DNA of 64,000 nucleotides from assembly GCA_903893485.1 (NCBI GenBank), contig CAITMK010000014.1, forward strand, positions 2,144 to 66,143. The letters run 5' to 3'. This DNA is from Candidatus Magasanikiibacteriota bacterium (GTDB lineage Bacteria; Patescibacteriota; Patescibacteriia; Magasanikbacterales; 2-02-FULL-50-9b). Numbering within the stretch: position 1 is the first letter of the stretch; each line of letters starts with the position of its first letter. Both the position numbers and the translations under genes were made by a program. Positions 13,719 to 59,411 of the stretch are shown here, one piece after another. The notes under the pieces were generated by a model, which was given only the letters and a program-made list of their open reading frames with translations, had not been told where the DNA came from and searched no databases.

Positions 13719-14708
13719 TTACTTGGGCGTGCCCGGCGTCGACACGATCACCTCATCACTTTCCAGAAAAGTCGATCCGAACAAAACACGTTCCAGCTGA
13801 ATTTGCGGCGGCATGCCATGCTCAGACCTCTTCAAGCGGATAAACATCCGCTCATTCTGGCCTTCGCTCTCGACGTAAGACATCGCAGTGTACGCCTTCC
13901 GCTCAGACCCGCGCCCAAAGCCGCTCAAGTTGAACGAACAACGATGCCACTCTTCCTGAAACCAGTAACCGGTTGGATTGTAGCAAAACATGATGCACAT
14001 GAACACCACTTGCGCTGGCGTTGCCGCGCGGTCCGATGAAACCGTATTCCCCACGCTCGGCTCGTATGCAATCCAGCGCCATTCAACTTCTTGTGGAGGC
14101 TGATAGAGAGACAGCACGCCAAAGCCCTCACGATCTGTTGTCCGTGGTGGAAAACAAATCTCTGGCCACGAACCACTACCTCTCGGAAACCACTCCAGCA
14201 GATTCGCCAGCGTCAAGTCCGGATGCATGGGATAAAGCAGTGCTGCCGGCGTTGCACCTTGCGTGTGCGTCTCAACCGCTTTCGGCAAGTCCTCTTGCAG
14301 TTTCTCGATCTGCGCAGCCGTGAAACGCACGTGTCCACGCATGGCCCGCTCAACTTCAACAGGGTGCACGATCCTGCGCGCCATGGGAGGCTTGCGATCA
14401 ATCACAAAGCTTTCCGCAATGGGATTTGTACCCATGAAGCGCGCCAACATGTCATCGATTTCGACGCAGGTGATTTGCCCATTACTCAGCGCCAGCAACA
14501 ATCGATTGATCCAGATACCCGCGCCAAGAAATTCACAAAGCGCTTCAGGATCGAACACGCCCTCTCGTGCAACTTCAAGGGCGCGTTTGGCCAGCCGCCA
14601 TTGAAAGTTCTCGCGCTGTGCGTGTTTGCCATGGCCGTGCCACCGGTCCTGCCAATAGGCGGCGTCAAACATTTGTTGAAGCGTCGGAAGTGAACGAATA
14701 ACACTCAT
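13719..14708 (-). CDS. GC-rich island A hypothetical protein (329 aa from ATG, 340 aa from the upstream GTG)
   Basis: About 60% GC ORF with SD GAGG 7 nt before ATG at 14708, its own terminator, and no recognisable domain; aromatic/Trp-rich. Confidence 0.5.
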   Translation of the reverse strand: MSVIRSLPTLQQMFDAAYWQDRWHGHGKHAQRENFQWRLAKRALEVAREGVFDPEALCEFLGAGIWINRLLLALSNGQITCVEIDDMLARFMGTNPIAESFVIDRKPPMARRIVHPVEVERAMRGHVRFTAAQIEKLQEDLPKAVETHTQGATPAALLYPMHPDLTLANLLEWFPRGSGSWPEICFPPRTTDREGFGVLSLYQPPQEVEWRWIAYEPSVGNTVSSDRAATPAQVVFMCIMFCYNPTGYWFQEEWHRCSFNLSGFGRGSERKAYTAMSYVESEGQNERMFIRLKRSEHGMPPQIQLERVLFGSTFLESDEVIVSTPGTPK

Positions 14709-19896: not shown

Positions 19897-19920
19897 GTCA
19901 TTTTGCAGGATGTCAAGTGT

Positions 19921-19949
19921 TTGACCATGATAAAAATACGTGATATAAA
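19921..19949 (+). promoter_or_regulatory. Sigma70-type promoter of island B1 gene with overlapping TGTCAA/TTGACC palindrome
   Basis: TTGACC-17 nt-TATAAA; inverted half-sites GTCAAgtgtTTGAC overlap the -35; SD AAGGAG 7 nt before ATG at 20004. Confidence 0.55.
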
Positions 19950-20003
19950 AGGCAAAGGTCTAAAATAGATCTTCCAGGACGAATAACCCCAAGGAGAAAT
20001 TCC

Positions 20004-20234
20004 ATGCTCTCGACTCGAATCGGTTTTTTACTGGCTCAACGGTTTGCCTATGCCACTTGTGGCGTTCTCTGCGTGGCATTTGGCACGATCAGCGCCGGGA
20101 TTGGCGGTATCGCAGCTGTGAGCGTAATTCCGGAAATGATCAGGGATCGCAACCCGAGCCACTGCCTCGGCGCCTTTCAAGTCAGCCGCGATTTCTTCGT
20201 TCTTGGCGCGCAGATCACTTTTTCGCGAGAGTGA
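20004..20234 (+). CDS. GC-rich island B1 small hydrophobic protein (76 aa)
   Basis: Strong SD plus promoter plus own terminator; N-terminal half hydrophobic (IGFLLAQRFAYATCGVLCVAFGTISAGIGGIAAVSVI). Confidence 0.5.
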   Translation: MLSTRIGFLLAQRFAYATCGVLCVAFGTISAGIGGIAAVSVIPEMIRDRNPSHCLGAFQVSRDFFVLGAQITFSRE

Positions 20235-20262
20235 TGATTACCGCCACACACAAAGGCGACCC

Positions 20263-20304
20263 GACCACTTTGTTTCGCACACGCGGACAAGGTGGTCATT
20301 TTTT
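20263..20304 (+). terminator. Intrinsic terminator of B1
   Basis: GACCACTTTG-loop-CAAGGTGGTC followed by ATTTTTT. Confidence 0.65.
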
Positions 20305-20346
20305 ATAAAAAAAGCGCCAGCGCCCGCGAGGTGTGCGGGGCTGGCG
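20305..20346 (-). terminator. Intrinsic terminator of B2 (copy 1 of 40-bp module)
   Basis: Minus strand CGCCAGCCCCGCACACCTCGCGGGCGCTGGCGC + TTTTTTT; near-identical copy at 20985-21023. Confidence 0.75.
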
Positions 20347-20376
20347 TTGCGACAAGTCGCTGGCGGCTGCCAGGGC

Positions 20377-20739
20377 TTATTCGCTGTAGAGGCACGAGAT
20401 GAAGAGCGATTTTGTAATGCCACCGCGAGCGGCTTGTACCTGACACGACTCGCCGACCTTCAGGCGATTCCAATCTTCTCGCGTAACTGAGAGATTAGCT
20501 TCACCTTCATCAATACGAAGCCTCAGCGTAAAGCGATCTTGCGAAACGCGAACCGAGTAGCGACTGCTCGGCTGAATTGCTCCGGGAGCCTGCGTTTTGC
20601 TCACCACCACGGCTTTGCACCGACCCAGATTCTTGCCGAACAAGACCTGGTCGATACAAGAAAATACCATGAAGATGAGCACGCCAGCGAACGTGATCAG
20701 GATCGCCAAGAGTATGAAATTACTAAGAAAATTCAACAT
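20377..20739 (-). CDS. GC-rich island B2: single-pass membrane protein with about 90-aa beta-rich ectodomain (DUF3592-like?)
   Basis: Start MLNFLSNF with SD GGAGTGG; TM helix FILLAILITFAGVLIFMVF, then RYSVRVSQDRFTLRLRID ... SVTREDWNRLKVGESCQV. Confidence 0.5.
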   Translation of the reverse strand: MLNFLSNFILLAILITFAGVLIFMVFSCIDQVLFGKNLGRCKAVVVSKTQAPGAIQPSSRYSVRVSQDRFTLRLRIDEGEANLSVTREDWNRLKVGESCQVQAARGGITKSLFISCLYSE

Positions 20740-20984
20740 TGTCCACTCCAAATCGTACAGCTTAGCCCATGATTGTGTAATAGCTGCAAATTGCACAACA
20801 AAACAGCATAGCATAAATATGCCGTTTTGTCAATGCTTTTAGTGTTACAGACTCAATAATCGCCGTGCTTTTTCATAACCATCTTCATCATTTTCCAGAT
20901 CGCGCAAAACCTCTGTCACGTTTGAAAATTGGGCTTGTAGTTTTTTTAAAAAACGCATGTCGCCTATGGATTTAGGATCTTAAT

Positions 20985-21023
20985 AAAAAAGCGCCAGCGC
21001 CCGCGAGTTGTGCGGGGCTGGCG
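20985..21023 (-). terminator. Intrinsic terminator of B3 (copy 2 of 40-bp module)
   Basis: AAAAAAGCGCCAGCGCCCGCGAGTTGTGCGGGGCTGGCG; differs from copy 1 by a single G/T. Confidence 0.75.
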
Positions 21024-21045
21024 AGAAACAAACGATGCGTGGCGA

Positions 21046-21630
21046 TTAGCCAGGCAGACCGCCAATGCGGAAAGTTGGCGGACTCAGATCTACAATGCGC
21101 GGCGTGGCCGGCGGCGAGCAGCCAAAGTAGTCCAGGATTTTTGCAGCCATTTCTTCAGGACGGCCATAGCCACGGGCAACTGGCAACAAAAACGTCGCAA
21201 GTTCAATCTCGAAGTCCGCGCGCGTCTCGGCGGTGCAAAGCTCATCGAGCGTGGCGTTGCCGTGCTCCCGATAAAGCGCCTCGGCGTCGATGATCGGCAC
21301 CAGACGATAAAACGGCGCCGGCGCGTCATCCGTCGAAAAGGCATCGAGTGCCTTGCGATAAAAGCCACGACGCATCTCCTGCATCCGAACGCCCATCATC
21401 GCCGAATAGTTCAGGTCTCCCTGCATCTCGGCCATGAACGTCAACTGCGCCAGCGCTTCGACGCAGCATGCATACACGTTCGGGTCCGTCGCGACTTTCA
21501 AGAAAGACATGTGCCGAAGCACTTCTTGATATTTGTCGCTCGCCTCACTGCTATACACATCCAGCTGGCTGAGACAAAGCGCAACACGCTCCTGCAGCGT
21601 AGGCTTCACATACTCTGGAATCTTCGGCAT
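21046..21630 (-). CDS. GC-rich island B3 hypothetical all-alpha protein (194 aa)
   Basis: SD AGGGAG 8 nt before ATG; TTGACA -35 upstream; no recognisable domain. Confidence 0.5.
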   Translation of the reverse strand: MPKIPEYVKPTLQERVALCLSQLDVYSSEASDKYQEVLRHMSFLKVATDPNVYACCVEALAQLTFMAEMQGDLNYSAMMGVRMQEMRRGFYRKALDAFSTDDAPAPFYRLVPIIDAEALYREHGNATLDELCTAETRADFEIELATFLLPVARGYGRPEEMAAKILDYFGCSPPATPRIVDLSPPTFRIGGLPG

Positions 21631-21701
21631 GACAATTACTCCCTACTCTTGGTTGATAGAGCAAAAAAAGAGTAACACAAAAAGTGTTAAATGTCAACCC
21701 C

Positions 21702-21808
21702 AGACTTTGATTTTATTTTTCAAAAAGACTGAACCCCATAAAGCGAGCTGCAACGCAAAGCGTTGCAATAGCGAGCGTGTCTTTTTCGAAAAATAAAATC
21801 AAAGTTCT
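21702..21808. repeat. Nested inverted repeat (28-bp AT-rich arms around a central GC hairpin) at the helicase 3' end
   Basis: Arms AGACTTTGATTTTATTTTTCAAAAAGAC / GTCTTTTTCGAAAAATAAAATCAAAGTTCT; centre GCTGCAACGCaaaGCGTTGCAA; right arm overlaps the helicase stop codon. Confidence 0.6.
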
Positions 21809-24660
21809 CTATATGGACAGATGTCTTTAAAATCACAATTCCCACACGCAAACGCGCTCGGCGTCGCCGCAAAATCACTCGTTCGAATTTCCGCAACCGT
21901 TTCGCCAACAAACTTTTCAATTTTTTCCAAATCTTTTTCTTTCGGTACAAAGCTCGCCTTTTCATTATTTTGAATATAATAATAACTGAGCAGTGTTGAC
22001 GTGGTATCGAATTGGCGCAGCGCAGCTAAATAATAAATCAGCAATTGCTCCTTATCTTCGAATTTTAAATCATCAGATGTTTTTGGCGAACCTGTTTTAT
22101 AATCAATAATTTCAACCGTGCCACTTGGCAAAATATCCATGCGATCAATTGAACCGGTCAGCACTTCCCCGCCAACAGAAATTTTAAATCGCTGTTCAAT
22201 AAAAGATGGTTTGGTCCAATGTGCGCTGTTGGTGCGATAATAATCGCGCAGCATGGTTTCAGCTTCGGCGCGTTTTTTTTCTTCAAATATTCGCGACGGA
22301 TATCCCTCAGAAATCCAATGCGCGCCCAAGAGTTCAATCAGTTTTTCCATGGCCGGTGTTTCAATTTCTTCACGAAGTAATTCATACCACGCTTGCAGCG
22401 TACTATGAATCGTGCGCCCAAAATTCATGGTCCATTTGCTGCGCGTTGGCAATTTGAGTACATGACTAAACCAATACTGATACGGACAAGTTTCAAAAGA
22501 TTTGAGCGCGGTAAAACTGTAGGCTTCTTTTTTTTCTGCAGGAATTTGTAGCGGCAAAACGGGTGATTTTTTTTCCGCAACAACATCATCCGTTTCAAGC
22601 GTTGGGGTTATTGCAATTTTTGCTTCCGCAATAAATCGCGATGGTTTACGCACGCGCGAATTTTCCGCAGTTGAATATTTTTCCGCGCACGAAATAAATA
22701 ATTTATTTTTTGCGCGTGTAAATGCAACATACGCCAACCGACGTTCTTCTTGCGTATGATGATCATCGCTCACCGCTTGCTCACGTACCAGCGCATCAGG
22801 CAATTCAATTCCATTCGCGCGTTCGCTTCCCGGAAACCGTCCTTCAATAAAACTAACTACAAAAACATTTTCAAATTCTAATCCTTTCGATGAATGTGTC
22901 GTGAGCAGCTGCACTGCCTCAAGCGCGCCTGCATCCAATGTTTGCTGGCCTTCTTCTCCAAGCTCAAGCAACCGATCGCAGTCAGCCAAAAAATCTTGCG
23001 GTGTTGCATTCGAGTGCGCCGCTTCCCACTCCGCAACAAATTCCAAAAATTGATTTACCAGTTGCATGTCCGCACCGCCCGTTTCAGATCCTGCGGTAAT
23101 TTCTTGTAACAATGCACGAAAATATCCTGACTTTTCGAGCAACTCATACAAAATAGAACTTGCTTTATTCGTGCGTAAAAATTCTACATCGATTTTTATT
23201 TTTTCGCCAAGCGCAAGCAGTGCCGTTTTTCCTTCTTCACTGAGCGACGGCGCAAATTCAGATAACAACGCCTGCGACAATTGCAAATTATTTTTCTTCG
23301 CATGCGCAATACTTTCCAAAACATCAGTCGATGGCACCACGGACACGCGCGAAATTGCAAGCTGATACCACGCGTTGCCATTATGGCGTTCAAGCGCCAC
23401 ACGCAGCAGCGCAAGCATATCAATCGCCGCGCGCGTTCGAAGCAATCCATCGGTTTGTGCAATCACATATGGCACCTGCAAACGTCGAAGTTCACCCGCT
23501 GTTTCTTCCAAATGCGACGACGCACGCGCCAAAACCGCAATTTGTTTTGGATCGCAACCCGCCGCAATTAACTGCGCAATCTCTGCCGCAATCCATTTTG
23601 CTTCTTTTATTGCCGATGGAAATTGATGTGCCTCTACCATGCCACCCGCGCCGCGCGCCGCACGTAATTTTTTCTCACCATTTTTTTCCAAACGATCTGG
23701 ATTATTATTTTGAATCAGCGCATACGCCGCATCCAAAATTTCTTGCTCAGATCGATAATTTTCTGTTAAAAAAACTTCTGCATGATTTGGAAATCGATTG
23801 CGAAACTGCAAAATATTATCAACACTCGCGCCGCGAAATTTATAAATCGCTTGATCGTCATCACCCACCACCGTAATATTTTGTGCGCTGCCCGCGAGTG
23901 CACAAACTAAATCATATTGCGCCATATTCGTATCCTGAAATTCATCAACCACAATATATTTATATCGCGACTGCAATCGCGCCAGCACGCTTGGCCGCTC
24001 AGTTAAAACGCGGTTTGCATACAATAATAAATCACCAAAATCCATGACCCCGCGCTGCAATAAAATTGTTTGATAGGTTTCATATGCCGCGGCTAATTCG
24101 GCCCAGCGTGCCGCATCATCGGCAGCAACTACATCGTCCGTCACCGCGCCGCTCGCAAAATCATCAGCAAATTTTTTGTACTGCTCTACCGAAATATTTT
24201 CATCTTTCGCGCGCAAAAAATGTTTAATTAAACTTCGCAAAAATTTTGTTGGATTTCCATGCGGCTTAAAATATTTTAAATCAAACCGATCAAATTCGTG
24301 ATGCAGCAGTAACCAAAGTTCTACTTCGCTCAGCAGCGGCGCACCTGGCGTCACTCCAATTTCCAATCCATAACGCGACAAAAGTTGCTGACAAAATCCA
24401 TGAAACGTCGCGGTATTCACCGCAATCGCGTTGTGCCCAATTAATTTTTCCAAACGTTCGCTCATTTCCGCCGCGGCCTTTTCGGTAAACGTAAGCGCCA
24501 CAATTTCGCCTGGTTTCGCAAGCCCCTGCTCCACCAGCCACGCAATACGATGCGTAATTACATTTGTCTTGCCCGTGCCTGCGCCCGCAATAATCATGAG
24601 CGGTCCTTGGCCATGTGTGATTGCTTTTTTTTGCGCTTCATTAAGGTGAGACAAATCCAT
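21799..24660 (-). CDS. UvrD/PcrA-family helicase fused to C-terminal Cas4/RecB-like PD-(D/E)XK nuclease with 4-Cys Fe-S motif (single-chain AddAB-like helicase-nuclease)
   Basis: Walker A GAGTGKT, DEFQDT, C-terminal nuclease with CPYQYW ... CGNCDFKDIC; real start MDLSHLNEAQ near 24660. Confidence 0.85.
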   Translation of the reverse strand: MDLSHLNEAQKKAITHGQGPLMIIAGAGTGKTNVITHRIAWLVEQGLAKPGEIVALTFTEKAAAEMSERLEKLIGHNAIAVNTATFHGFCQQLLSRYGLEIGVTPGAPLLSEVELWLLLHHEFDRFDLKYFKPHGNPTKFLRSLIKHFLRAKDENISVEQYKKFADDFASGAVTDDVVAADDAARWAELAAAYETYQTILLQRGVMDFGDLLLYANRVLTERPSVLARLQSRYKYIVVDEFQDTNMAQYDLVCALAGSAQNITVVGDDDQAIYKFRGASVDNILQFRNRFPNHAEVFLTENYRSEQEILDAAYALIQNNNPDRLEKNGEKKLRAARGAGGMVEAHQFPSAIKEAKWIAAEIAQLIAAGCDPKQIAVLARASSHLEETAGELRRLQVPYVIAQTDGLLRTRAAIDMLALLRVALERHNGNAWYQLAISRVSVVPSTDVLESIAHAKKNNLQLSQALLSEFAPSLSEEGKTALLALGEKIKIDVEFLRTNKASSILYELLEKSGYFRALLQEITAGSETGGADMQLVNQFLEFVAEWEAAHSNATPQDFLADCDRLLELGEEGQQTLDAGALEAVQLLTTHSSKGLEFENVFVVSFIEGRFPGSERANGIELPDALVREQAVSDDHHTQEERRLAYVAFTRAKNKLFISCAEKYSTAENSRVRKPSRFIAEAKIAITPTLETDDVVAEKKSPVLPLQIPAEKKEAYSFTALKSFETCPYQYWFSHVLKLPTRSKWTMNFGRTIHSTLQAWYELLREEIETPAMEKLIELLGAHWISEGYPSRIFEEKKRAEAETMLRDYYRTNSAHWTKPSFIEQRFKISVGGEVLTGSIDRMDILPSGTVEIIDYKTGSPKTSDDLKFEDKEQLLIYYLAALRQFDTTSTLLSYYYIQNNEKASFVPKEKDLEKIEKFVGETVAEIRTSDFAATPSAFACGNCDFKDICPYREL

Positions 24661-25572: not shown

Positions 25573-26091
25573 CTACACCTCGGATGCGCCCGCAGAATTC
25601 GTAGCGAAGATAACGCGTGCGAACACAGAGGCTGGAAGCACTTTCGCTTTCAAGCGCTGCCACGTGGTCGGTTTGCCGTACTGATACAGCTTGAGCGACG
25701 GAAAATCCCGGAGATTCCACAGCGCCGCGCGTGCCGCACCTACATGCGTGACGTCCGTCCAGACCTTGATGACGGTATCCCGTGAGATTTCGCTCGCAAG
25801 CAGGTATTGATGGAACACCACCGTGCTCTGCTGCACCGAATCGCCACCGTAAAGCGTGACGAACGTGGGAGTTTGCTGATTTCCGTGAGGATCTCGCAGT
25901 GCCCACTCCTGCCTCAAATAGTCCAAAATGGCCGTGTGATTGCCTTCGCCACAGAGCGCAACAACCGTTCGGGCGTTGTGCTGCTTGGCAAGAGCGATCG
26001 CGTCGTCTAAGTAATGCTGATGATCAAATGTCTCCGGATTCACGTCGCGACACAAAATCGCAAGGCAGACTGGATGTTTGTTGAATTGCAT
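25573..26091 (-). CDS. GC-rich island C hypothetical protein (172 aa; weak DUF218/YdcF-like resemblance)
   Basis: SD AGGAGG 6 nt before ATG; TTGACA-17-TATTTT promoter with TGn extension; LCGEGNH ... TLYGGDS pattern. Confidence 0.5.
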   Translation of the reverse strand: MQFNKHPVCLAILCRDVNPETFDHQHYLDDAIALAKQHNARTVVALCGEGNHTAILDYLRQEWALRDPHGNQQTPTFVTLYGGDSVQQSTVVFHQYLLASEISRDTVIKVWTDVTHVGAARAALWNLRDFPSLKLYQYGKPTTWQRLKAKVLPASVFARVIFATNSAGASEV

Positions 26092-28154: not shown

Positions 28155-28796
28155 ATGTTGCGTCGAATCGCTTCGTTTCTGGTTCTCTTTGTGCTCTGCT
28201 TCACAACGACGCCGGCATTTGCTTGGGGTCGCGGTGGTGGTGGAGGTGGTGGTCATGGCGGCGGCGGTTACCGCGGAGGTGGTGGCGGCTGGACCGGTGG
28301 CTATCGCGGCGGTGGCGGAGGTGGTTACTACAACGGCGGTTACCGCAGCGGTGGCAGCTGGGGTGGCTACAGCACCTGGGGCACTAGCCCTCGGTACGTA
28401 AACGCTTGGAACTACCCGAACCGGATCGTCTATCCCGCGCCCGTGCCGATGTGCACGTACCGCGACAGCTGGGGACGAATCTATCAGGCGATCTGCGTGG
28501 CACGTCCGGCCGTGGTGTATGCGCCGCCCGTGCAGCAATACGTGCAGCCCGCGCCGATCCCGCAGCAATACCTGGCGGATCAGCCGCCGGTATACGGACA
28601 GCCGCAGCAGCAAGTAGCTGCCCCGGCTCCGCCCGCAGCTGTTCAAGGCACGCACACCTTCGGCTGCTACCAGGCGCGCGACAACAACTTCTGGTACTGC
28701 GACGCAGACCAGCAGAAGTTCGCCAGCTGCACGCCGGCGGATACCACAGGCAACTTCGTTTGCCAGCAGCAAGTGATCGAATACGTCCGGCCATAA
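28155..28796 (+). CDS. GC-rich island D: secreted Gly/Tyr/Arg-rich, Pro/Gln-rich, Cys-rich protein (213 aa)
   Basis: Signal peptide MLRRIASFLVLFVLCFTTTPAFA; GGGGYRGGGGG repeats; PQQ/PAP linker; 6-Cys C-terminal domain; about 62% GC; opposite strand to the atp operon. Confidence 0.6.
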   Translation: MLRRIASFLVLFVLCFTTTPAFAWGRGGGGGGGHGGGGYRGGGGGWTGGYRGGGGGGYYNGGYRSGGSWGGYSTWGTSPRYVNAWNYPNRIVYPAPVPMCTYRDSWGRIYQAICVARPAVVYAPPVQQYVQPAPIPQQYLADQPPVYGQPQQQVAAPAPPAAVQGTHTFGCYQARDNNFWYCDADQQKFASCTPADTTGNFVCQQQVIEYVRP

Positions 28797-36705: not shown

Positions 36706-37299
36706 CTAGGCGTGCAGCACAAGCGTGGTGCCAGCCGACAGCAGATGGCCGGGCGTGCCGAATGGAGTGCGTTCCACCATAATGCCAGACCCCTTGGGCT
36801 TTGCTTCGTACACCCAACGCTCGCCTTCAGCGCTGACAAACGCCGCCAGTGGCAAATTGTTGCGCCGACGGCGACTGCAGTACCCCAAGTAGGCCAAGAA
36901 GGTCGCCTCCGTAATGGACGCGGACAGGTATGGGCCAAGCGCGTCATCTTTGCAGAGAAACGTCGGCTCCACCTGATAGCGCAGACTTGCGACGCACACC
37001 GCACCGCCCGGAAATCCACCCGTCGGAATCGATTCATCGACCCGCTCCGGATTGATTCCCCGAACCAGCATGTCGTACTCCAAAAAGTACCCGCAGGACA
37101 AATCTCGGTGCGTGAGCCAAACGCGCGCGAGAAGAATGTCCACTTCCTTCAACGCACGATTAACCTTGCCGAATGCGCCGTCTTCAGGCGCGCCCACCAC
37201 GAGGCGAGCGATGTCGGTTACGGTACGCACAATTTCGCAATAGACACCGGCGACTTGCCGCAACCCCGTTTGGGGATGAAAATTCAAAGTCTGATGCAT
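36706..37299 (-). CDS. GC-rich island E hypothetical protein (197 aa)
   Basis: SD GAGGGGG 7 nt before ATG; canonical promoter and operator upstream; no recognisable domain. Confidence 0.5.
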   Translation of the reverse strand: MHQTLNFHPQTGLRQVAGVYCEIVRTVTDIARLVVGAPEDGAFGKVNRALKEVDILLARVWLTHRDLSCGYFLEYDMLVRGINPERVDESIPTGGFPGGAVCVASLRYQVEPTFLCKDDALGPYLSASITEATFLAYLGYCSRRRRNNLPLAAFVSAEGERWVYEAKPKGSGIMVERTPFGTPGHLLSAGTTLVLHA

Positions 37300-41949: not shown

Positions 41950-42516
41950 TTAGGCGTACGAGAGAATCGCCGGCGCCATAAAAGACCGTGTAACCGTTGC
42001 GTCTACAACACCAAGCGAGTAGGCCCCTGTGTCGCGCATGAAGCACGCCCGATACTGAAACGAATTTCCAATATACGTGCAGGAACACACAATTGGTTCG
42101 TCCCAAAATAAATGCGGAAATTGCGCGTACACAAACATGCCCTGACGAATGGTGATACCCTGATCAGGAAACTTACCGCTTTCAAATTGGACCGCAAACC
42201 AATACACGGAATTTTCGTGACTCGGCTCCAAATCAACAGCCAAATACTTTTGCGCACCAAGCGGAAACCAGATGGTCAGCTGACGGCACATATCACGAAA
42301 AAACATACGCTCATCGGCTAAAATGAGATGTGCTCCTGCGTGCTGCGCCGCAAAAAATAACTCCTTGGGAATCTCGGGAATCGAGAGAAGGTACTTTTGG
42401 AACGGCTGCCGCGCGCCAGGCCACCCACAATCATGCAACCGTTGCGCACGCTGCACGCGAAGTTCGTGACGATTTTGCACCGCGGTACCGAGAGAAAGTT
42501 TGGTTACCAATTCCAT
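41950..42516 (-). CDS. GC-rich island F hypothetical protein (188 aa)
   Basis: SD AGGAG 7 nt before ATG; TTGACA 60 nt upstream; aromatic-rich; no recognisable domain. Confidence 0.5.
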   Translation of the reverse strand: MELVTKLSLGTAVQNRHELRVQRAQRLHDCGWPGARQPFQKYLLSIPEIPKELFFAAQHAGAHLILADERMFFRDMCRQLTIWFPLGAQKYLAVDLEPSHENSVYWFAVQFESGKFPDQGITIRQGMFVYAQFPHLFWDEPIVCSCTYIGNSFQYRACFMRDTGAYSLGVVDATVTRSFMAPAILSYA

Positions 42517-55088: not shown

Positions 55089-57287
55089 TTATTTAATAGC
55101 CGGTAAATTGGCCGCAGGAAACTGTTGACGAATCCAATAACGCGTCGCGGAATCATTTGCTTTTGCAGCAGTCGTATCAAACAAACCAATGGCTGGATCG
55201 CGCGGATCCGAAATATATTTTTGAGTTACTGCCAATTTATATAAACGAACTGCTGAACCATACTGGCCAGCGTCAGAATAAATCATGATGGCCGCTTGTA
55301 CTGCCGCTGAAGAATCGAGCGTTTGACCAAGCTCAAGCGCAGTTGCAAGTTCGGAAGCTGCTCGTTGCTTATCAACGCCAATAAGCATTGTTGCAAAAAT
55401 CCAATGTGAAAAAGGCACATCAGGTTCTAATTTTACCGCGTGATCCATGAGCTGTATTGCGGTTGCCGTATCTTTTACCGTCATTTTAAGTCGCGCCCAG
55501 CTATAATAAATCTGCTGGCGATTTGGACTAAACCTTACTGCCAATGCAAACCGCGCATCTGCCTGCTGCACCGTTGTAGCGCCACCAATTGGCGCATAAT
55601 TAGACATAATTTGAGCCTCCAATAACGCGGCCAAAACATTTGCCGGCTCGTAATTTGCTAATAACGTATCGAGCGATTTAATTCCATACGCATAATAATC
55701 TTGATGCGCCTGCAAATCTTGCGTTGACATCGATTGCATGGTGCGGCCAACATCAAGTAGCACATCAGCGGTATGCGGCCCCTTAAGTGCAAAAGCGCTA
55801 TCGAACGATACTTCAGCGCCAGAATAATCCTGGCCATTGATAGCCATCTGCGCATCTAAATCTGCTGAATTTTGGCGAACCGACGGCACGACCATCCAAA
55901 GCATTGCCAAAAATAATAGTGCCTGCAACATAAAAACAAGTACGGGGGACGGTACACTTGCTTTTTTTACATCGCCGGATTCTTTAAGTCGCGCATATTC
56001 CGCAAAAACCAAGCCCGCCATGAAATAAAACATGGCATAGGACGATGGATGATCAAACACAAATAAATTGTGAATGAAATGCACGACAAAAAAAGCAACG
56101 TAAATACTTGCACGGAATTCAGATAGTTCGTCAGATTGGTATGCGCGACATAATTGAATTCCCATCCAGATAAGCAAAATATATTGCAAAAGATATAGTG
56201 AAAATCCAACCGCACCTTGCGTTACCAACGCTTCGATCGGTGCATCATGCGCGTGATCAAACCACGTTTCATAACTACCAAACAGCTGTGATTGTGGATT
56301 AAAGAATTTATTAAAAACATAAAAATAATTTTCTGGCCCCCAACCAAATACTGGTCGCTCCTTAAATCCTTTAAATGCAATTTCCCACGCAATGAAACGA
56401 GTACTTGCGGTACCGCTGCTTGATGAAATATCAAGCAAACGATTCACCATGCTGGCCTGACCAAGCGCACCAAAATGATCAGCGACAAATAAAGCGGCGG
56501 CCAAGAAAATAAATACGCCACCAATTTGTTTGATGCGCGTTGCGTATCCTCGCTTCCAAAAACGCGGCAAATAAATAATACCAATACCACAAAGTCCAAC
56601 AATTAACGCAAGCAAAGCACTTCGCGTGCCAGAAAAATATAAAGCCAGCAAATGAATAACCCCAATGCCAATATACACACCACGCATTTTGGTGCGCCAG
56701 TATTTATAAATAAACCAACCCGTGATAAGTAGCGATTCCGCAGCAAAGCCACCCATATAAATTGGGTTACCAAACACACCGGCCACACGATTGCTGGCAG
56801 AATTTAAAAAACTTGGATCAATTACCTGAATGAGTCCGGAAAGCGAAACCGGAATTGAAACCCATAAAAAAACCGAGAGCGCTTTTTCAATTGCACTAAT
56901 TCGCGCTTCATAAAAATAAAGCCCAACTAATACACTAAAAACTAATGCATGGATAATAAACACCGCGCCGGTCATACGCTCAAAGTTGCTCCACAGTGCA
57001 CGATTTACATCGAATGCAGAAAACGCGCTAAGTAAAAGCGCAACGATATATGCCCCCGCAAACCAAAAGTACGCGCCGCGCAAAAAAGGTCGCGCCGCGC
57101 CCGCAACCAAGGCAGGCACTGAAAAAATAGCAAGCAAAAAAACAACAACTTCAAAAAAAATTGCCTTTGGAAAAACAAATGGAAAAATTGATTGCGAACT
57201 AAGTACAATCAGCGGCGTAATAAATGATGCGTAAATTACCCAACGACGCATGCGATTTGAGAAAATAGTTGCAAGAAAATCTGACAT
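55089..57287 (-). CDS. O-antigen ligase (Wzy_C)-like polytopic membrane protein with C-terminal TPR domain, paralogue 1
   Basis: About 12 TM helices with a Wzy_C-like periplasmic loop (FGNPIYMGG ... HAHDAPIEALVTQG), then TPR repeats. Confidence 0.7.
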   Translation of the reverse strand: MSDFLATIFSNRMRRWVIYASFITPLIVLSSQSIFPFVFPKAIFFEVVVFLLAIFSVPALVAGAARPFLRGAYFWFAGAYIVALLLSAFSAFDVNRALWSNFERMTGAVFIIHALVFSVLVGLYFYEARISAIEKALSVFLWVSIPVSLSGLIQVIDPSFLNSASNRVAGVFGNPIYMGGFAAESLLITGWFIYKYWRTKMRGVYIGIGVIHLLALYFSGTRSALLALIVGLCGIGIIYLPRFWKRGYATRIKQIGGVFIFLAAALFVADHFGALGQASMVNRLLDISSSSGTASTRFIAWEIAFKGFKERPVFGWGPENYFYVFNKFFNPQSQLFGSYETWFDHAHDAPIEALVTQGAVGFSLYLLQYILLIWMGIQLCRAYQSDELSEFRASIYVAFFVVHFIHNLFVFDHPSSYAMFYFMAGLVFAEYARLKESGDVKKASVPSPVLVFMLQALLFLAMLWMVVPSVRQNSADLDAQMAINGQDYSGAEVSFDSAFALKGPHTADVLLDVGRTMQSMSTQDLQAHQDYYAYGIKSLDTLLANYEPANVLAALLEAQIMSNYAPIGGATTVQQADARFALAVRFSPNRQQIYYSWARLKMTVKDTATAIQLMDHAVKLEPDVPFSHWIFATMLIGVDKQRAASELATALELGQTLDSSAAVQAAIMIYSDAGQYGSAVRLYKLAVTQKYISDPRDPAIGLFDTTAAKANDSATRYWIRQQFPAANLPAIK

Positions 57288-57288
57288 A

Positions 57289-59376
57289 TTAATGAAGTTG
57301 TTTTAAAAATATCTCTGCATCTGGCGCGAACGACGGATCAAGATCCACTGCCGATTGAACCGCTGCGCGCGCTTCAGCATTTTTATGAAGCACCGCATAG
57401 GTTGCCGCGAGATGTGCATAGCGTGATGCCGTTGGATGAATTGCCAGCAGCTTCTGAAATAAATCTACGATAAGTGCATATTCTTTTTCAGTCGTTAAAC
57501 GCTGCACCAGCGCGTCTACGGTCGGTTGAATTTCATCGTTATCTCGAATACGAACCGCCTGCACCACGCTTGCAATTGCCGCCGGATACTTAGGTTTTAA
57601 CATGTATACATACGTAAGCACATCCCAAGCTTCTTGCCGATACGGCGAAATAATTTGTGCTTGCAAAAATGCTTTTTCCGAAACATCCAGATACGAAGTA
57701 TCATCAAGCAAGAGTGCGGTATGATATGCTGCCTTACCACCAAACAATTCCCAACGAGAATCATTTTTATTTGCGGCAATATAATTTATGGTTCGCTGTC
57801 CGTTTTGTTTTACCGCGGCCAACCACAAACCGTGTGCTGGCTCTGGCATGGCTTGCGCAGCCTGTAAATCCGCATCAAATGGACTTAGAAGTGCGCCGGA
57901 TGTCCACTGCCACACCTCAAAATCATACGGCCCAGCTGGCGCAGCATACACGGTTTGTACGTCAGCGGCAACCGCCGCAAAATCTTTATCGGAAGCGCGG
58001 TTTAAAGCCTCTTGCGTAAAATATGCGGCGCGGACTGGCAAAACACCGCCGTAAACGATAGCGCCAATAGCAAAACAAAATACCACAAATTGAATCCCGC
58101 GATTTTTTCGAAACGCCCACGCGCGTGGCATTACAATAAAATTTCCTGGATCCGCAACCGCGGCAAGCAAAATTAATAAACTCAGCGCAGCCAGACTCGC
58201 ATACGTCTCGAATGAAACAAAAAGCATGAGCTGCAGCGCAACAAGTGACCCAACGAGTAGCGACGCGCCGAGCAGCCCAAATGCACGCGCCCCACGCGTT
58301 AACAAGGTATAACAAATTCCAGTTATAAATAACAAATATGCCAATAAACCCACAATTCCCGAAGCAACCAACGTTTCTAAATACATGTTATGCGGTTTAT
58401 CGATACGTGTTTCGTAATATGAATAATCCAAAAGTGCTGGATCAAAATATTTATCAGCAACCGCGCGATAATTTTCTGGTCCGCGACCTAAAATTGGATT
58501 ATCTTTGAAACCTTTCAATGCGATTTTCCAATTAATAATACGTGTCTGCACCGTGCTACTGCCACGCCCAAGTAAAATTATATTTTGCACCGTACCCTGC
58601 GCACCTGCAAAATATACAATGGTGCTAACAAGTATCGCAGCAAAACAAAACCCAGCGATATATATTTTTCCCTTTTTATAGCCACGCCAAAAATAAATCA
58701 GCGCAGCAACTAAAAGCCCCGCACCAACCCCAAGCACCGCACCACGCGTTAATGTTTGATAAAGTGCCGCCGCCACAACCACCATGGTGATGGGCAAAAA
58801 AAATAATCGAAACCACGCTGGCAAATGCAAACGTTTTCCATGAATCCATGCAAGTGGTAGTAGTAATAAAAGCGGCGAAAGCCATGCGCCAAAAACCATC
58901 GGATTACCATACGTACCACATAAACGCACGGGATCAACACAATCAAAAATAATCGGGCGAAACAGGGACAGTCCGCTAATTACGGCAGCCTGCAAAACAA
59001 CTACGTACCAAAAAATCCTTTGATTATCTGCGTGCTGCATTTCGCTGCGAGCAACCAATATCCACAGAAAAAAGGCGATCAAATGTGCAGCGCCCAACGC
59101 GCGCGTTCCGTCACTCCAAAAAGATTGCCCGGCGTTTACCCCAAAAATGCTGGTGATAATAAATATCGCCAAATACAGGGCAAATAATGCTTCAACCGCT
59201 CCAAACGTAAATTTTTCAATCTTGCTTTTTAGCAAAACATACAAACTCAGCAGACCAATAAGCAACACCCAGCACGCACGCGGCAGCGTTGATGGCATGA
59301 TAGTAAGGGGTACCACAATAAGTGGCGACAAAAGCCCTCCGACAAACGCAATGCGCGAAATGAGATTTTTGTTCAT
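57289..59376 (-). CDS. O-antigen ligase-like membrane protein with TPR domain, paralogue 2
   Basis: Same architecture (YGNPMVFGAW ... KPHNMYLETLVASG). Confidence 0.7.
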   Translation of the reverse strand: MNKNLISRIAFVGGLLSPLIVVPLTIMPSTLPRACWVLLIGLLSLYVLLKSKIEKFTFGAVEALFALYLAIFIITSIFGVNAGQSFWSDGTRALGAAHLIAFFLWILVARSEMQHADNQRIFWYVVVLQAAVISGLSLFRPIIFDCVDPVRLCGTYGNPMVFGAWLSPLLLLLPLAWIHGKRLHLPAWFRLFFLPITMVVVAAALYQTLTRGAVLGVGAGLLVAALIYFWRGYKKGKIYIAGFCFAAILVSTIVYFAGAQGTVQNIILLGRGSSTVQTRIINWKIALKGFKDNPILGRGPENYRAVADKYFDPALLDYSYYETRIDKPHNMYLETLVASGIVGLLAYLLFITGICYTLLTRGARAFGLLGASLLVGSLVALQLMLFVSFETYASLAALSLLILLAAVADPGNFIVMPRAWAFRKNRGIQFVVFCFAIGAIVYGGVLPVRAAYFTQEALNRASDKDFAAVAADVQTVYAAPAGPYDFEVWQWTSGALLSPFDADLQAAQAMPEPAHGLWLAAVKQNGQRTINYIAANKNDSRWELFGGKAAYHTALLLDDTSYLDVSEKAFLQAQIISPYRQEAWDVLTYVYMLKPKYPAAIASVVQAVRIRDNDEIQPTVDALVQRLTTEKEYALIVDLFQKLLAIHPTASRYAHLAATYAVLHKNAEARAAVQSAVDLDPSFAPDAEIFLKQLH

Positions 59377-59411
59377 ATCTTCCGCCTATAATAGCTCATT
59401 TTATTGACGCA

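What the first reader, a model, noticed from the sequence alone, without database searches (positions are those of the whole stretch)
19900..21640. Three-gene GC-rich island with a duplicated 40-bp terminator module and a host-like remnant ORF
B1 (small hydrophobic 76-aa protein, plus strand) converges on B2 (TM helix plus beta-rich ectodomain, 120 aa) with back-to-back terminators. B2 and B3 (194-aa all-alpha protein) each end in the same sequence AAAAAAGCGCCAGCGCCCGCGAG(G/T)TGTGCGGGGCTGGCG (20305-20346 and 20985-21023, one mismatch). Between them lies a 150-bp AT-rich, host-like segment with a 37-aa ORF (about 20845-20958, MRFLKKLQAQFSNVTEVLRDLENDEDGYEKARRLLSL). This suggests two cassettes carrying the same 3' module were inserted one after another into an older locus. 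The membrane/ectodomain/cytoplasmic composition could be a small signalling or toxin-immunity-type module.
Basis: seen in the sequence. Interest (0 to 1): 0.7.

Follow-up and report, generated by a model that had tools for sequence, protein, structure and literature searches.

The report
Accessory-gene islet with a duplicated terminator
Three small orphan genes, each with its own promoter, ribosome-binding site and terminator, fill a variable gap between two conserved housekeeping genes of an uncultivated Magasanikbacteria (CPR) bacterium. The repeated 44-bp sequence is one gene's transcription terminator copied locally for its neighbour, so it is real but not a new kind of mobile cassette.

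Summary
A 44-bp sequence occurs at 20303-20346 and 20980-21023, with one loop substitution, and nowhere else in the window or in three public collections. On the minus strand it is a GC-rich hairpin followed by a U-run, 22-30 nt after the stops of B2 and B3. That makes it an intrinsic terminator.

The host is a Magasanikbacteria-like CPR bacterium. In relative L008 the flanking genes (UvrD/AddA-type helicase and dciA) are 47 bp apart, so the 1.9-kb block is an insertion in a variable slot.

B3 is not a fresh cassette. Its only homologue in about 15 billion proteins (29% identity) lies directly upstream of dciA in another Magasanikbacteria MAG. That copy is also GC-rich, and its terminator is 35/41 identical to the B3 copy here. 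B3 and its terminator are therefore old residents, and the B2 copy is a local duplicate. Recombination within the hairpin is the likely route, but this is inferred.

No integrase, attC features or toxin, immunity or signalling homology were found. The 37-aa ORF has no support as a gene.

B1-B3 belong to a wider class of eight GC3-rich, Shine-Dalgarno-led, promoter-plus-terminator ("moron-like") orphan genes in a genome whose native genes lack SD. Protein functions remain unknown.

The parts
19921..19949 (+). Predicted promoter of B1: TTGACC, 17-nt spacer, TGaTATAAA (extended -10).
   Evidence: Read directly from the sequence. The scan tool missed it because it requires T at the last -10 position. 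It lies just beyond the last base conserved with the L087 dciA upstream region.
20004..20234 (+). B1: 76-aa small membrane protein with one hydrophobic, Gly-rich helix at about residues 15-43. Orphan.
   Evidence: ORF. SD AAGGAG lies 8 nt before the ATG. GC3 is 0.60. KD hydropathy. No family, plasmid, phage or viral hit. Singleton 90% cluster.
20263..20304 (+). Intrinsic terminator of B1: hairpin 20263-20297 plus TTTTTT. Together with copy A it forms a back-to-back, bidirectional termination zone.
   Evidence: Fold of 20225-20350 on the plus strand gives -56.3 kcal/mol, z = -4.7.
20303..20346 (-). Terminator repeat, copy A (serves B2): 12-bp GC-rich stem with one bulge, 7-nt loop, U7 run. It starts 30 nt after the B2 stop.
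   Evidence: -36.1 kcal/mol in context, z = -4.0. Its loop base differs from both copy B and the L087 orthologue, so it is the derived copy.
20377..20739 (-). B2: 120-aa bitopic membrane protein with an N-terminal TM helix followed by a beta-rich domain. Orphan.
20805..20833 (-). Predicted promoter of B2: TTGACA, 17-nt spacer, TATGCT, with an upstream TG. It lies inside the AT-rich spacer.
   Evidence: Best promoter-like site in the region, 10 of 12 matches. It also overlaps the start of the 145-aa ORF version, which favours the 120-aa start.
20845..20958 (-). 37-aa ORF in the AT-rich spacer. Probably not a gene.
   Evidence: No SD or promoter. GC3 is 0.29. No family hit. No tblastn or tblastx relative in 80+ related loci.
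20980..21023 (-). Terminator repeat, copy B (serves B3). It starts 22 nt after the B3 stop and is the ancestral copy.
   Evidence: -24.8 kcal/mol, z = -2.2. It is 35/41 identical to the terminator after the B3 homologue in L087, and 0 of 300 shuffles reach that score. The upstream GTTTCT and the loop base are also shared.
21046..21630 (-). B3: 194-aa acidic, predicted all-alpha, soluble protein. It belongs to a fast-evolving two-member family.
   Evidence: ORF. SD GGGAG. GC1/2/3 = 0.63/0.43/0.67. Exhaustive HMMER over 1.84 billion representatives found one true relative, P0003, at E = 6e-10. BLASTP gives 29% identity with a conserved FY-x-VPIID-EA...LC block. The AF2 model is unusable, pLDDT 39.
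21669..21696 (-). Predicted promoter of B3: TTGACA, 16-nt spacer, TACTCT. The -10 is weak.
   Evidence: Read from the sequence. The same layout (TTGACT, 17-nt spacer, TAGAGT, then SD) precedes the L087 homologue. The similarity is only marginal: 45/64 identical, with 13 of 300 shuffles as good.
21704..21805 (.). 102-bp hairpin with 23-bp AT-rich arms and an inner GC stem. It overlaps the helicase stop codon and marks the helicase-side edge of the islet. Probably the helicase terminator or an insulator.
   Evidence: Inverted repeat I2. Folds at -43 kcal/mol on either strand, z = -5.7 and -8.9. Absent downstream of the helicase in L007 and L008. No other copy and no Rfam family.

Best explanation
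The region is a small flexible-genome islet of about 1.9 kb (roughly 19920-21805). It sits in a variable slot between a UvrD/AddA-type helicase gene and the dciA-mreBCD-PBP2 cluster of a Magasanikbacteria-like (CPR/Patescibacteria) chromosome.

It consists of three independent, monocistronic, 'moron-like' units. Each has a sigma-70-type promoter, a canonical Shine-Dalgarno, a short GC3-rich orphan ORF and a Rho-independent terminator.

The 44-bp repeat is the intrinsic terminator of B3. B3 with this terminator is an old resident of the slot, because an orthologous gene with an orthologous terminator sits there in a second genome. The B2 unit (AT-rich promoter spacer plus B2) was added later, between that terminator and the B1/dciA side, and the terminator was duplicated in the process.

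The most likely route is recombination inside the 44-bp hairpin: either single-crossover insertion of DNA already carrying the terminator, or unequal crossover between two slot alleles that shared it. Either route leaves one copy with the old upstream flank (copy B) and the other on the dciA side (copy A). This step is inferred, not shown.

Functionally, both copies stop B3 and B2 transcription. With the B1 terminator they form a bidirectional stop that shields the apparently leaderless dciA-mreB operon from read-through.

The proteins are a small membrane protein (B1), a membrane-anchored beta-domain protein (B2) and a fast-diverging soluble helical protein (B3). I take them to be dispensable accessory genes, probably envelope- or conflict-related. 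That functional guess rests only on inference.
For: Terminator:
- Hairpin plus U-run on the coding strand, 22-30 nt after each stop.
- Only 2 copies in the window.
- None in GTDB representative genomes, JGI metagenomes or IMG/VR.

Insertion into a variable slot:
- The helicase-to-dciA gap is 47 bp in L008 (67% helicase identity) against 1,938 bp here.
- Other relatives hold unrelated genes in the same gap.

B3 is an old resident:
- Its only homologue, P0003, lies directly upstream of dciA in the Magasanikbacteria MAG GCA_026396555.1.
- That terminator is 35/41 identical to copy B, with 0 of 300 shuffles reaching the score. The dciA upstream region is 46/58 identical.
- L087 lacks B1 and B2.
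- Copy B shares the loop base and the GTTTCT upstream flank with L087; copy A does not.

Autonomous units:
- Promoters.
- SD in all three genes, while neighbouring native genes lack SD: 8/8 against 4/54, Fisher p = 1.5e-7.
- Every GC-rich orphan in the window ends in its own hairpin, seven of the eight followed by TTTTTTAT.

B3 diverges fast: 29% identity, against 64-87% for dciA, TM126, MreB, VanW and PBP2 in the same pair of genomes.

The arrangement is real: independent assemblies agree.
Against: - No transcript data exist, so promoters and terminators are predictions. The B3 -10 is weak, and the promoter homology to L087 is only marginal.
- The recombination route for the duplication is inferred from two genomes. 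No allele with B2 alone or B3 alone was found.
- The rest of this genome could not be scanned, because the source genome is not in the GTDB-representative collection. More copies could exist elsewhere.
- In L087 the gene upstream of the B3 homologue is not the helicase, so the slot is only half-syntenic there.
- The persistently high GC3 and SD of B3 in two diverged genomes is not explained by a simple old-resident model.
Confidence: 0.6

Rival explanations
1. Cassette model. B2 and B3 are two mobile cassettes that each brought the same 3' recombination module, integron-attC-like or otherwise, and were inserted one after the other by a site-specific recombinase.
For: - Two near-identical hairpin-forming 3' modules follow unrelated ORFs.
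- The stem has one bulged base.
- The slot is variable between genomes.
Against: - The module has a U-run and lies exactly where a terminator should.
- Both units have their own predicted promoters, whereas integron cassettes lack promoters.
- No shared RYYYAAC / GTTRRRY cores flank the copies (sequence).
- No integrase, transposase or resolvase Pfam appears in the gene lists, which cover most but not all of the window.
- There are no other copies in any collection.
- The L087 orthologue shows that the module is inherited with B3 in place.
Confidence: 0.08
2. Single recent horizontal transfer. The whole GC-rich block (B1, B2 and B3) came at once from a GC-richer, SD-using donor such as a host bacterium or a phage, and the terminator duplication happened in the donor.
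For: - GC3 of 0.59-0.67 against about 0.40 for native genes.
- Canonical SDs in a genome whose native genes lack them.
- Absent from L008.
Against: - A B3 homologue with an orthologous terminator is already in the same slot of a genome whose dciA is only 70% identical at the nucleotide level. That genome has no B1 or B2.
- No donor-like homologue exists among about 15 billion proteins, plasmids, phages or IMG/VR.
- The islet is split by a 37% GC spacer.
- Other GC-rich SD-led orphans, such as the one in the atpG/atpD slot, are syntenic across three genomes. They are therefore long-term residents.
Confidence: 0.12
3. Dispersed palindromic repeat. The 44-mer is a REP/BIME-like or host-wide terminator repeat that happens to have two copies here.
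For: - Palindromic, extragenic and GC-rich.
- The complete genome could not be searched.
Against: - Only 2 copies occur in the 64-kb window plus the small extra stretches of this genome held as loci, both in this locus.
- The other terminators in the window all have different stems.
- Among the fetched relatives it occurs only in L087, and there only after the B3 homologue.
- The 50 hits to a loosened pattern are unrelated terminators, mostly on GC-rich contigs, without the inner stem or loop.
Confidence: 0.08
4. Functional three-gene module (toxin-immunity, signalling or exclusion system). B1, B2 and B3 work together.
For: - Two membrane proteins and one fast-evolving soluble protein lie side by side.
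- B3 diverges much faster than its neighbours, as conflict genes often do.
- In L087 the B3 homologue directly follows the C-terminus of an unknown larger protein, a layout seen for immunity genes.
- Phage morons often encode small membrane exclusion proteins (PMC3594210).
Against: - No hit in Pfam, NCBIfam, PADLOC, PHROGs or PDB for any of them, or for the L087 upstream fragment.
- They are three separate transcription units, one on the opposite strand.
- B3 occurs without B1 or B2 in L087.
Confidence: 0.1

Closest known systems
Phage 'morons' (Juhala/Hendrix; reviewed by Cumby et al. 2012, PMC3594210)
   Same: - Self-contained units with their own promoter and factor-independent terminator.
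- GC content differs from that of the flanking genes.
- Present between two genes that are adjacent in a related genome.
- Often encode small membrane proteins.
   Different: The flanks here are cellular housekeeping genes (helicase, dciA, mreBCD, ATP synthase), not a phage or prophage. At least B3 and the atpG/atpD occupant are long-term syntenic residents rather than sporadic additions. No benefit to the host has been shown.
Rho-independent (intrinsic) terminators, including back-to-back bidirectional pairs between convergent genes
   Same: GC-rich stem-loop followed by a U-run just after the stop codon. The convergent B1 and B2 terminators share an A/T tract.
   Different: The same 44-bp terminator is used twice within 680 bp after unrelated genes. 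This is unusual, because all other terminators in the window differ from each other.
Integron gene cassettes with attC sites
   Same: ORFs followed by an imperfect hairpin-forming 3' element. Neighbouring elements are alike, as in chromosomal integron arrays.
   Different: Differences from attC cassettes:
- No R'/R'' core sites.
- A U-run is present.
- The genes have their own promoters.
- There is no IntI.
- There are only two copies.
- One copy is orthologous to a terminator in the same place in another species.
Flexible genomic islets at conserved 'slots' (replacement or additive flexible islands of pangenome studies)
   Same: The same chromosomal position between conserved genes holds different or no genes in related genomes.
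   Different: It is very small (0-1.9 kb). It has no tRNA or integrase anchor. The occupants share unusual GC3 and SD signatures.
REP/BIME-type extragenic palindromes
   Same: A short GC-rich extragenic palindrome that can act as a terminator and as a recombination substrate.
   Different: It is not dispersed: there are two copies, both in this locus, and none in relatives apart from the orthologous site.

Membership tests
Rho-independent terminator | GC-rich stem-loop immediately followed by a U-run on the transcribed strand | tested here: met
   12-bp stem with one bulge, 7-nt loop, and U6-U7 on the minus strand in both copies.
Rho-independent terminator | Located shortly downstream of the stop codon of a co-oriented gene | tested here: met
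   30 nt after the B2 stop and 22 nt after the B3 stop.
Rho-independent terminator | Transcripts actually end there | not testable with these tools
   Needs Term-seq or RNA-seq from a sample containing this organism, or a reporter assay.
Integron cassette / attC | Inverse core sites R'' (RYYYAAC) and R' (GTTRRRY) bounding the hairpin | tested here: not met
   Neither motif is shared by the two copies. Similarity ends at the hairpin and A-run.
Integron cassette / attC | IntI tyrosine recombinase with attI nearby | tested here: not met
   No integrase or recombinase Pfam appears among the called genes covering most of the 64-kb window. The rest of the genome was not seen.
Integron cassette / attC | Promoterless ORFs expressed from a common Pc | tested here: not met
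   Each unit has its own promoter-like site, and B1 is on the opposite strand. These are predictions only.
Moron (phage accessory unit) | Own promoter and terminator | tested here: met
   By sequence prediction for B1, B2 and B3.
Moron (phage accessory unit) | Base composition differs from that of the flanking genes | tested here: met
   GC3 of 0.59-0.67 against about 0.40.
Moron (phage accessory unit) | Absent between the same two genes in a related genome | tested here: met
   L008 has a 47-bp helicase-to-dciA gap.
Moron (phage accessory unit) | Resides in a phage or prophage genome | tested here: not met
   The flanks are the helicase, dciA, mreBCD, PBP2, ATP synthase and SecA. B1-B3 have no phage or viral hits.
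DUF3592 (proposed for B2) | Match to the Pfam profile at or above the gathering score | tested here: not met
Toxin-immunity / TA module | Recognisable toxin or immunity domain, and co-transcribed adjacent partners | tested here: not met
   No hits in Pfam, NCBIfam, PADLOC or PHROGs. The units are separate, and B3 occurs alone in L087.
Dispersed extragenic palindrome (REP-like) | Many copies scattered through the genome | tested here: inconclusive
   Only 2 copies were found in the 64-kb window and the few other stretches of this genome held. The complete genome was unavailable.

The most novel reading that the evidence does not exclude
B1-B3 are examples of a distinct gene class in Magasanikbacteria. 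Members are GC3-rich, Shine-Dalgarno-led, and each has its own promoter and terminator. They are fast-evolving orphan genes that persist for long periods in fixed slots between operons. The native genes around them are SD-less and often apparently leaderless.

This would imply one of two things. Either two translation-initiation regimes coexist in one reduced CPR cell, or there is a private, recombining accessory gene pool that keeps its foreign composition and swaps or stacks genes by recombination at terminator hairpins. The duplicated 44-mer would be a footprint of one such event.
Probability: 0.2. Interest if true: 0.65.

Novelty: new variant of a known kind. Interest (0 to 1): 0.4.

Why it matters
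On its own the finding is a tidy but ordinary case. It shows how a tiny CPR genome gains accessory genes in a fixed slot, and how an intrinsic terminator can be duplicated and reused, probably serving as a patch of homology for recombination.

The wider pattern it led to is more useful. In this genome and two relatives, the orphan accessory genes differ sharply from native genes in codon GC and in how translation starts (SD against SD-less or leaderless). Some of them stay in the same slots across species while diverging very fast.

If confirmed, this gives a simple sequence signature for picking out the accessory or conflict gene pool of CPR bacteria. It also gives a concrete test case for translation initiation in Parcubacteria, many of which are reported to lack the anti-SD motif (PMC9297842).

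Tried and rejected
- **Exact-stem scans.** GCGCCAGCGCCCGC-N7-GCGGGGCTGGCG was scanned against GTDB representative genomes, JGI metagenomes and IMG/VR with no hits. This also shows that the source genome itself is not in the GTDB set.
- **Loosened hairpin pattern.** It gave 49 metagenome hits and 1 viral hit. All are unrelated terminators, mostly on GC-rich contigs, with no B1-B3 homologues.
- **Protein homology.** The word-index searches for B2, B3 and the B3+P0003 profile returned only the query proteins themselves. In the exhaustive HMMER run, the second hit, P0004 (2,220 aa), is a repetitive translation artefact and was discarded.
- **Profile libraries.** Pfam, NCBIfam, PADLOC, PHROGs and PDB-sequence searches gave nothing above noise for B1, B2, B3, orf37, P0003 or the L087 upstream fragment.
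- **Mobile-element collections.** tblastn against plasmids and phages, and IMG/VR scans for all three proteins, found nothing.
- **Non-coding segments.** blastn-short and tblastx of the AT-rich spacer, the IR hairpin and the B1 unit against all loci found nothing significant. This removes the idea that orf37 is a remnant of a host gene. Rfam found no family and there are no tRNAs.
- **B2 against B3.** No similarity, which rules out a diverged tandem gene duplication.
- **Assembly artefact.** Rejected by concordant independent assemblies.
Full report
**What is in the sequence**

The three ORFs exist as described:
- B1: 20004-20234, plus strand, 76 aa.
- B2: 20377-20739, minus strand, 120 aa.
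- B3: 21046-21630, minus strand, 194 aa.

The block is GC-rich. Sliding GC is 0.56-0.61 over B3 and 0.53-0.57 over B1 and B2, against a window average near 0.46. A 37% GC spacer at about 20700-20999 interrupts it. The excess is mainly at third codon positions. GC3 is 0.60, 0.59 and 0.67, against a mean of 0.42 for 47 long ORFs. For B3, GC3 > GC1 > GC2, as expected of a real GC-rich coding frame. The antisense 221-aa ORF is Arg-rich and looks spurious.

The repeat is confirmed at 20303-20346 and 20980-21023. It has one substitution (20331 G, 21008 T) and a small T/A difference in the A-run. There are two matches in 64 kb and none in 100 shuffles. Similarity ends sharply at the repeat edges.

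**What the repeat is**

On the minus strand, which is the coding strand of B2 and B3, each copy reads CGCCAGCCCCGC-loop-GCGGGCGCUGGCG followed by U6-U7. This is a 12-bp GC-rich stem with one bulge. It starts 30 nt after the B2 stop and 22 nt after the B3 stop. That is the anatomy of a Rho-independent terminator.

B1, on the plus strand, has a different hairpin plus T-run (20263-20304). Its T-run abuts the A-run of copy A, so the convergent B1/B2 pair ends in a compact back-to-back termination zone.

Each gene also has a sigma-70-like promoter:
- B1: TTGACC, 17-nt spacer, TGaTATAAA at 19921-19949.
- B2: TTGACA, 17-nt spacer, TATGCT with an upstream TG at 20833-20805.
- B3: TTGACA, 16-nt spacer, TACTCT at 21696-21669.

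Each has a canonical Shine-Dalgarno as well: AAGGAG, GGAG and GGGAG. The islet is therefore three separate monocistronic units, not an operon.

**Host and context**

The flanking genes are:
- a UvrD/PDDEXK helicase-nuclease (21799-24597/24687, minus strand);
- dciA, a 126-aa membrane protein, mreB, mreC, mreD and PBP2 on the other side;
- ATP synthase, SecA, Mur ligases and Wzy-type genes further out.

The closest genomes are Candidatus Magasanikiibacteriota/Magasanikbacteria MAGs, with 69% and 67% helicase identity. The same locus appears at 99.8-100% identity in several independent assemblies, including contigs that span both repeat copies. It is therefore not an assembly artefact.

**The islet is an insertion in a variable slot**

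In L008 the helicase stop and the dciA start are 47 bp apart. Here they are 1,938 bp apart.

Other relatives fill the same gap differently:
- L007 has an AT-rich roughly 300-aa HExxH protein.
- L010 has two other ORFs.
- L011, L012 and L014 have small opposite-strand ORFs.
- L013 has nothing.

The helicase-side edge here is a 102-bp hairpin (21704-21805, about -43 kcal/mol) that overlaps the helicase stop codon. It is absent in L007 and L008.

**B3 is an older resident, and so is its terminator**

B2 and B3 have no relatives in the 5.8-billion-protein word-index search. An exhaustive HMMER run of B3 against 1.84 billion representatives found one true homologue, P0003 (163 aa, E = 6e-10). A second hit is a repetitive artefact. 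A profile search added nothing further.

P0003 is encoded in the Magasanikbacteria MAG GCA_026396555.1 (L087), directly upstream of dciA-TM125-mreB-mreC-mreD-PBP2. That is the same side of the same slot.

In this pair of genomes, identities are as follows:

| Protein | Identity |
|---|---|
| DciA | 74% |
| TM126 | 64% |
| MreB | 83-87% |
| VanW | 85% |
| PBP2 | 66% |
| B3 | 29% |

Even so, the B3 pair keeps a clear conserved block, FY-x-VPIID-EA...LC.

The L087 gene is also GC3-rich (0.63, against about 0.38 for its neighbours) and has the SD GGAGG. Its terminator, UUGCCAGUGCCC-CAACUCU-CGGGCGCUGGCAG-U6, is 35/41 identical to copy B here. None of 300 shuffles reaches that score. The adjacent dciA upstream region is 46/58 identical.

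Copy B shares its loop base, and the GTTTCT just upstream of the stem, with L087. Copy A differs at both. L087 has no B1 or B2; its terminator runs straight into the conserved dciA upstream element.

**How the duplicate probably arose (inferred)**

Compared with L087, the window has extra DNA between the terminator and the dciA upstream element. In order, this is the AT-rich spacer with the B2 promoter, then B2, then a second terminator copy, then the B1 unit.

Copy B keeps the ancestral upstream flank (the B3 3' UTR). Copy A now faces the dciA side. This is the pattern expected from recombination within the 44-bp sequence. It could have been a single crossover with DNA that already carried the terminator, for example a sibling allele with B2 in front of the same slot terminator. 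It could also have been unequal crossover between two such alleles.

Several alternatives fit less well:
- A tandem gene duplication is excluded, because B2 and B3 are unrelated.
- There are no attC-type cores, and no recombinase appears among the called genes covering most of the 64-kb window.
- A loosened pattern search found the hairpin type only at this locus and at the orthologous L087 site. It was absent from the other fetched relatives.
- The 50 loose hits in metagenomes and IMG/VR are unrelated terminators, mostly on GC-rich contigs.

I could not scan the rest of this genome, so a dispersed family is not fully excluded.

**The 37-aa ORF**

It starts 22 nt after copy B. It has no SD and no promoter, its GC3 is 0.29, and it has no relative in any search, including tblastx against more than 80 related loci. 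The AT-rich spacer is better explained as ordinary promoter-bearing intergenic DNA for B2. The 'host-like remnant' reading is unsupported.

**The proteins**

- B1 has one hydrophobic, Gly-rich helix at residues 15-43.
- B2 has a confident N-terminal TM helix and a low-confidence beta-rich domain. There is no positive charge before the helix, and K36, R40 and K42 follow it. This leans towards a cytoplasmic rather than external domain, but it is not settled.
- B3 is acidic and predicted helical, but the model is unusable at pLDDT 39.
- Nothing matches Pfam, NCBIfam, PADLOC, PHROGs, PDB, plasmids, phages or IMG/VR.

A toxin-immunity or signalling role therefore has no direct support. The only hints are B3's very fast divergence and the fact that its L087 homologue follows the C-terminus of an unknown larger protein.

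**A wider pattern**

The window holds eight GC3-rich, Pfam-less orphan genes: B1, B2, B3 and ORFs at 13719-14708, 25573-26091, 28155-28796, 36706-37299 and 41950-42516.

All eight have a canonical SD. Of 54 native genes only four have even a weak AGGA or GGAG, and one has a GGAG/GAGG core. Fisher p is 1.5e-7 and 2.7e-9 respectively. All eight also have their own promoter-like site and their own hairpin terminator, each with a different stem except the B2/B3 pair. In seven of the eight the hairpin is followed by TTTTTTAT.

Many native first genes have a -10 box 5-12 nt before the ATG, which suggests leaderless mRNAs. L087 shows the same split.

The atpG/atpD gap holds an opposite-strand, GC3-rich (0.67-0.78), SD-led, signal-peptide-bearing, Gly/Tyr/Pro-rich protein in the window, in L007 and in L008. 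At least some members of this class are therefore long-term syntenic residents that diverge beyond BLAST recognition, like B3.

Published work reports that the anti-SD motif is undetected in about half of Parcubacteria 16S rRNAs (PMC9297842). Whether this organism keeps it could not be checked.

**Comparison with known systems**

The anatomy matches the definition of phage morons: own promoter and terminator, deviant GC, and presence between genes that are adjacent in a relative (PMC3594210). It fails the 'in a phage' criterion. It is not an integron array and not a REP family on present evidence. I file it as a moron-like accessory islet in a chromosomal flexible slot, with a locally duplicated intrinsic terminator.

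**Verdict**

The finding is a new variant of a known kind and of moderate interest. Most of that interest comes from the genome-wide split between GC3-rich, SD-led orphan genes and native genes. The duplicated 40-mer itself is less remarkable.

Noticed in passing
window 13719-14708 (-), 20004-20234 (+), 20377-20739 (-), 21046-21630 (-), 25573-26091 (-), 28155-28796 (+), 36706-37299 (-), 41950-42516 (-): Eight GC3-rich (0.53-0.70) Pfam-less orphan genes all carry a canonical Shine-Dalgarno, a promoter-like site and their own hairpin terminator; in seven of the eight the hairpin is followed by TTTTTTAT. Only 4 of 54 native genes have even a weak SD (Fisher p = 1.5e-7). None except B3 has a tblastn hit in close relatives. 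L087 shows the same split.
   Followed up: partly
window, e.g. dciA 19860, S30AE 8628, SecA 8011, Fer4 38972; L088 Wzy2, GT2: Many native first-in-operon genes have a -10-like box (TACAAT, TATAAT, CACAAT) ending 5-12 nt before the ATG, with no SD. This suggests widespread leaderless mRNAs in this CPR genome. The literature notes loss of the anti-SD motif in part of Parcubacteria (PMC9297842).
   Followed up: partly
window 28155-28796 (+); L007 4216-4521 (-); L008 5490-5990 (-): The ATP synthase operon is split between atpG and atpD by an opposite-strand gene. It encodes a protein with a signal peptide that is rich in Gly, Tyr, Pro and Gln and contains Cys. The gene is GC3-rich and SD-led. It is present in all three genomes but too diverged for BLAST.
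   Followed up: partly
window 21704-21805: A 102-bp hairpin (23-bp AT-rich arms, inner GC stem, about -43 kcal/mol, z down to -8.9) overlaps the helicase stop codon. It is absent from L007 and L008 and has no other copy and no Rfam family.
   Followed up: partly
L007 12886-13773 (+): In relative L007 the helicase-dciA slot holds an AT-rich (39% GC, against 48% for the locus) roughly 296-aa protein with an HEMAH zinc-protease-like motif. It gives only sub-threshold hits to Peptidase_M91, eCIS_core and capP.
   Followed up: partly
L087 1-511 (+): Upstream of the B3 homologue in L087 is the C-terminal 167+ aa of an unknown protein (GC 51%, no family hit), cut by the contig end. It is not the helicase, so the slot is only half-syntenic there.
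   Followed up: partly
L087 1922-2797: MreB in L087 is called at 291 aa. It aligns to the window MreB in two pieces that skip residues 187-244. This could be a deletion or an assembly or frame problem in that MAG.
   Followed up: no
window about 55089-63161 (L088 1926-9998): Four consecutive large Wzy_C (O-antigen ligase/polymerase-like) paralogues, one of them inverted, lie next to glycosyltransferase and sugar-nucleotide genes.
   Followed up: no
Beyond window position 1 (gene list, locus 20542-22802): Just outside the window, the same contig encodes a DUF8128 protein followed by a TraG/VirD4-type coupling protein (T4SS-DNA_transf, TrwB). This hints at a conjugation or DNA-uptake module nearby.
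   Followed up: no
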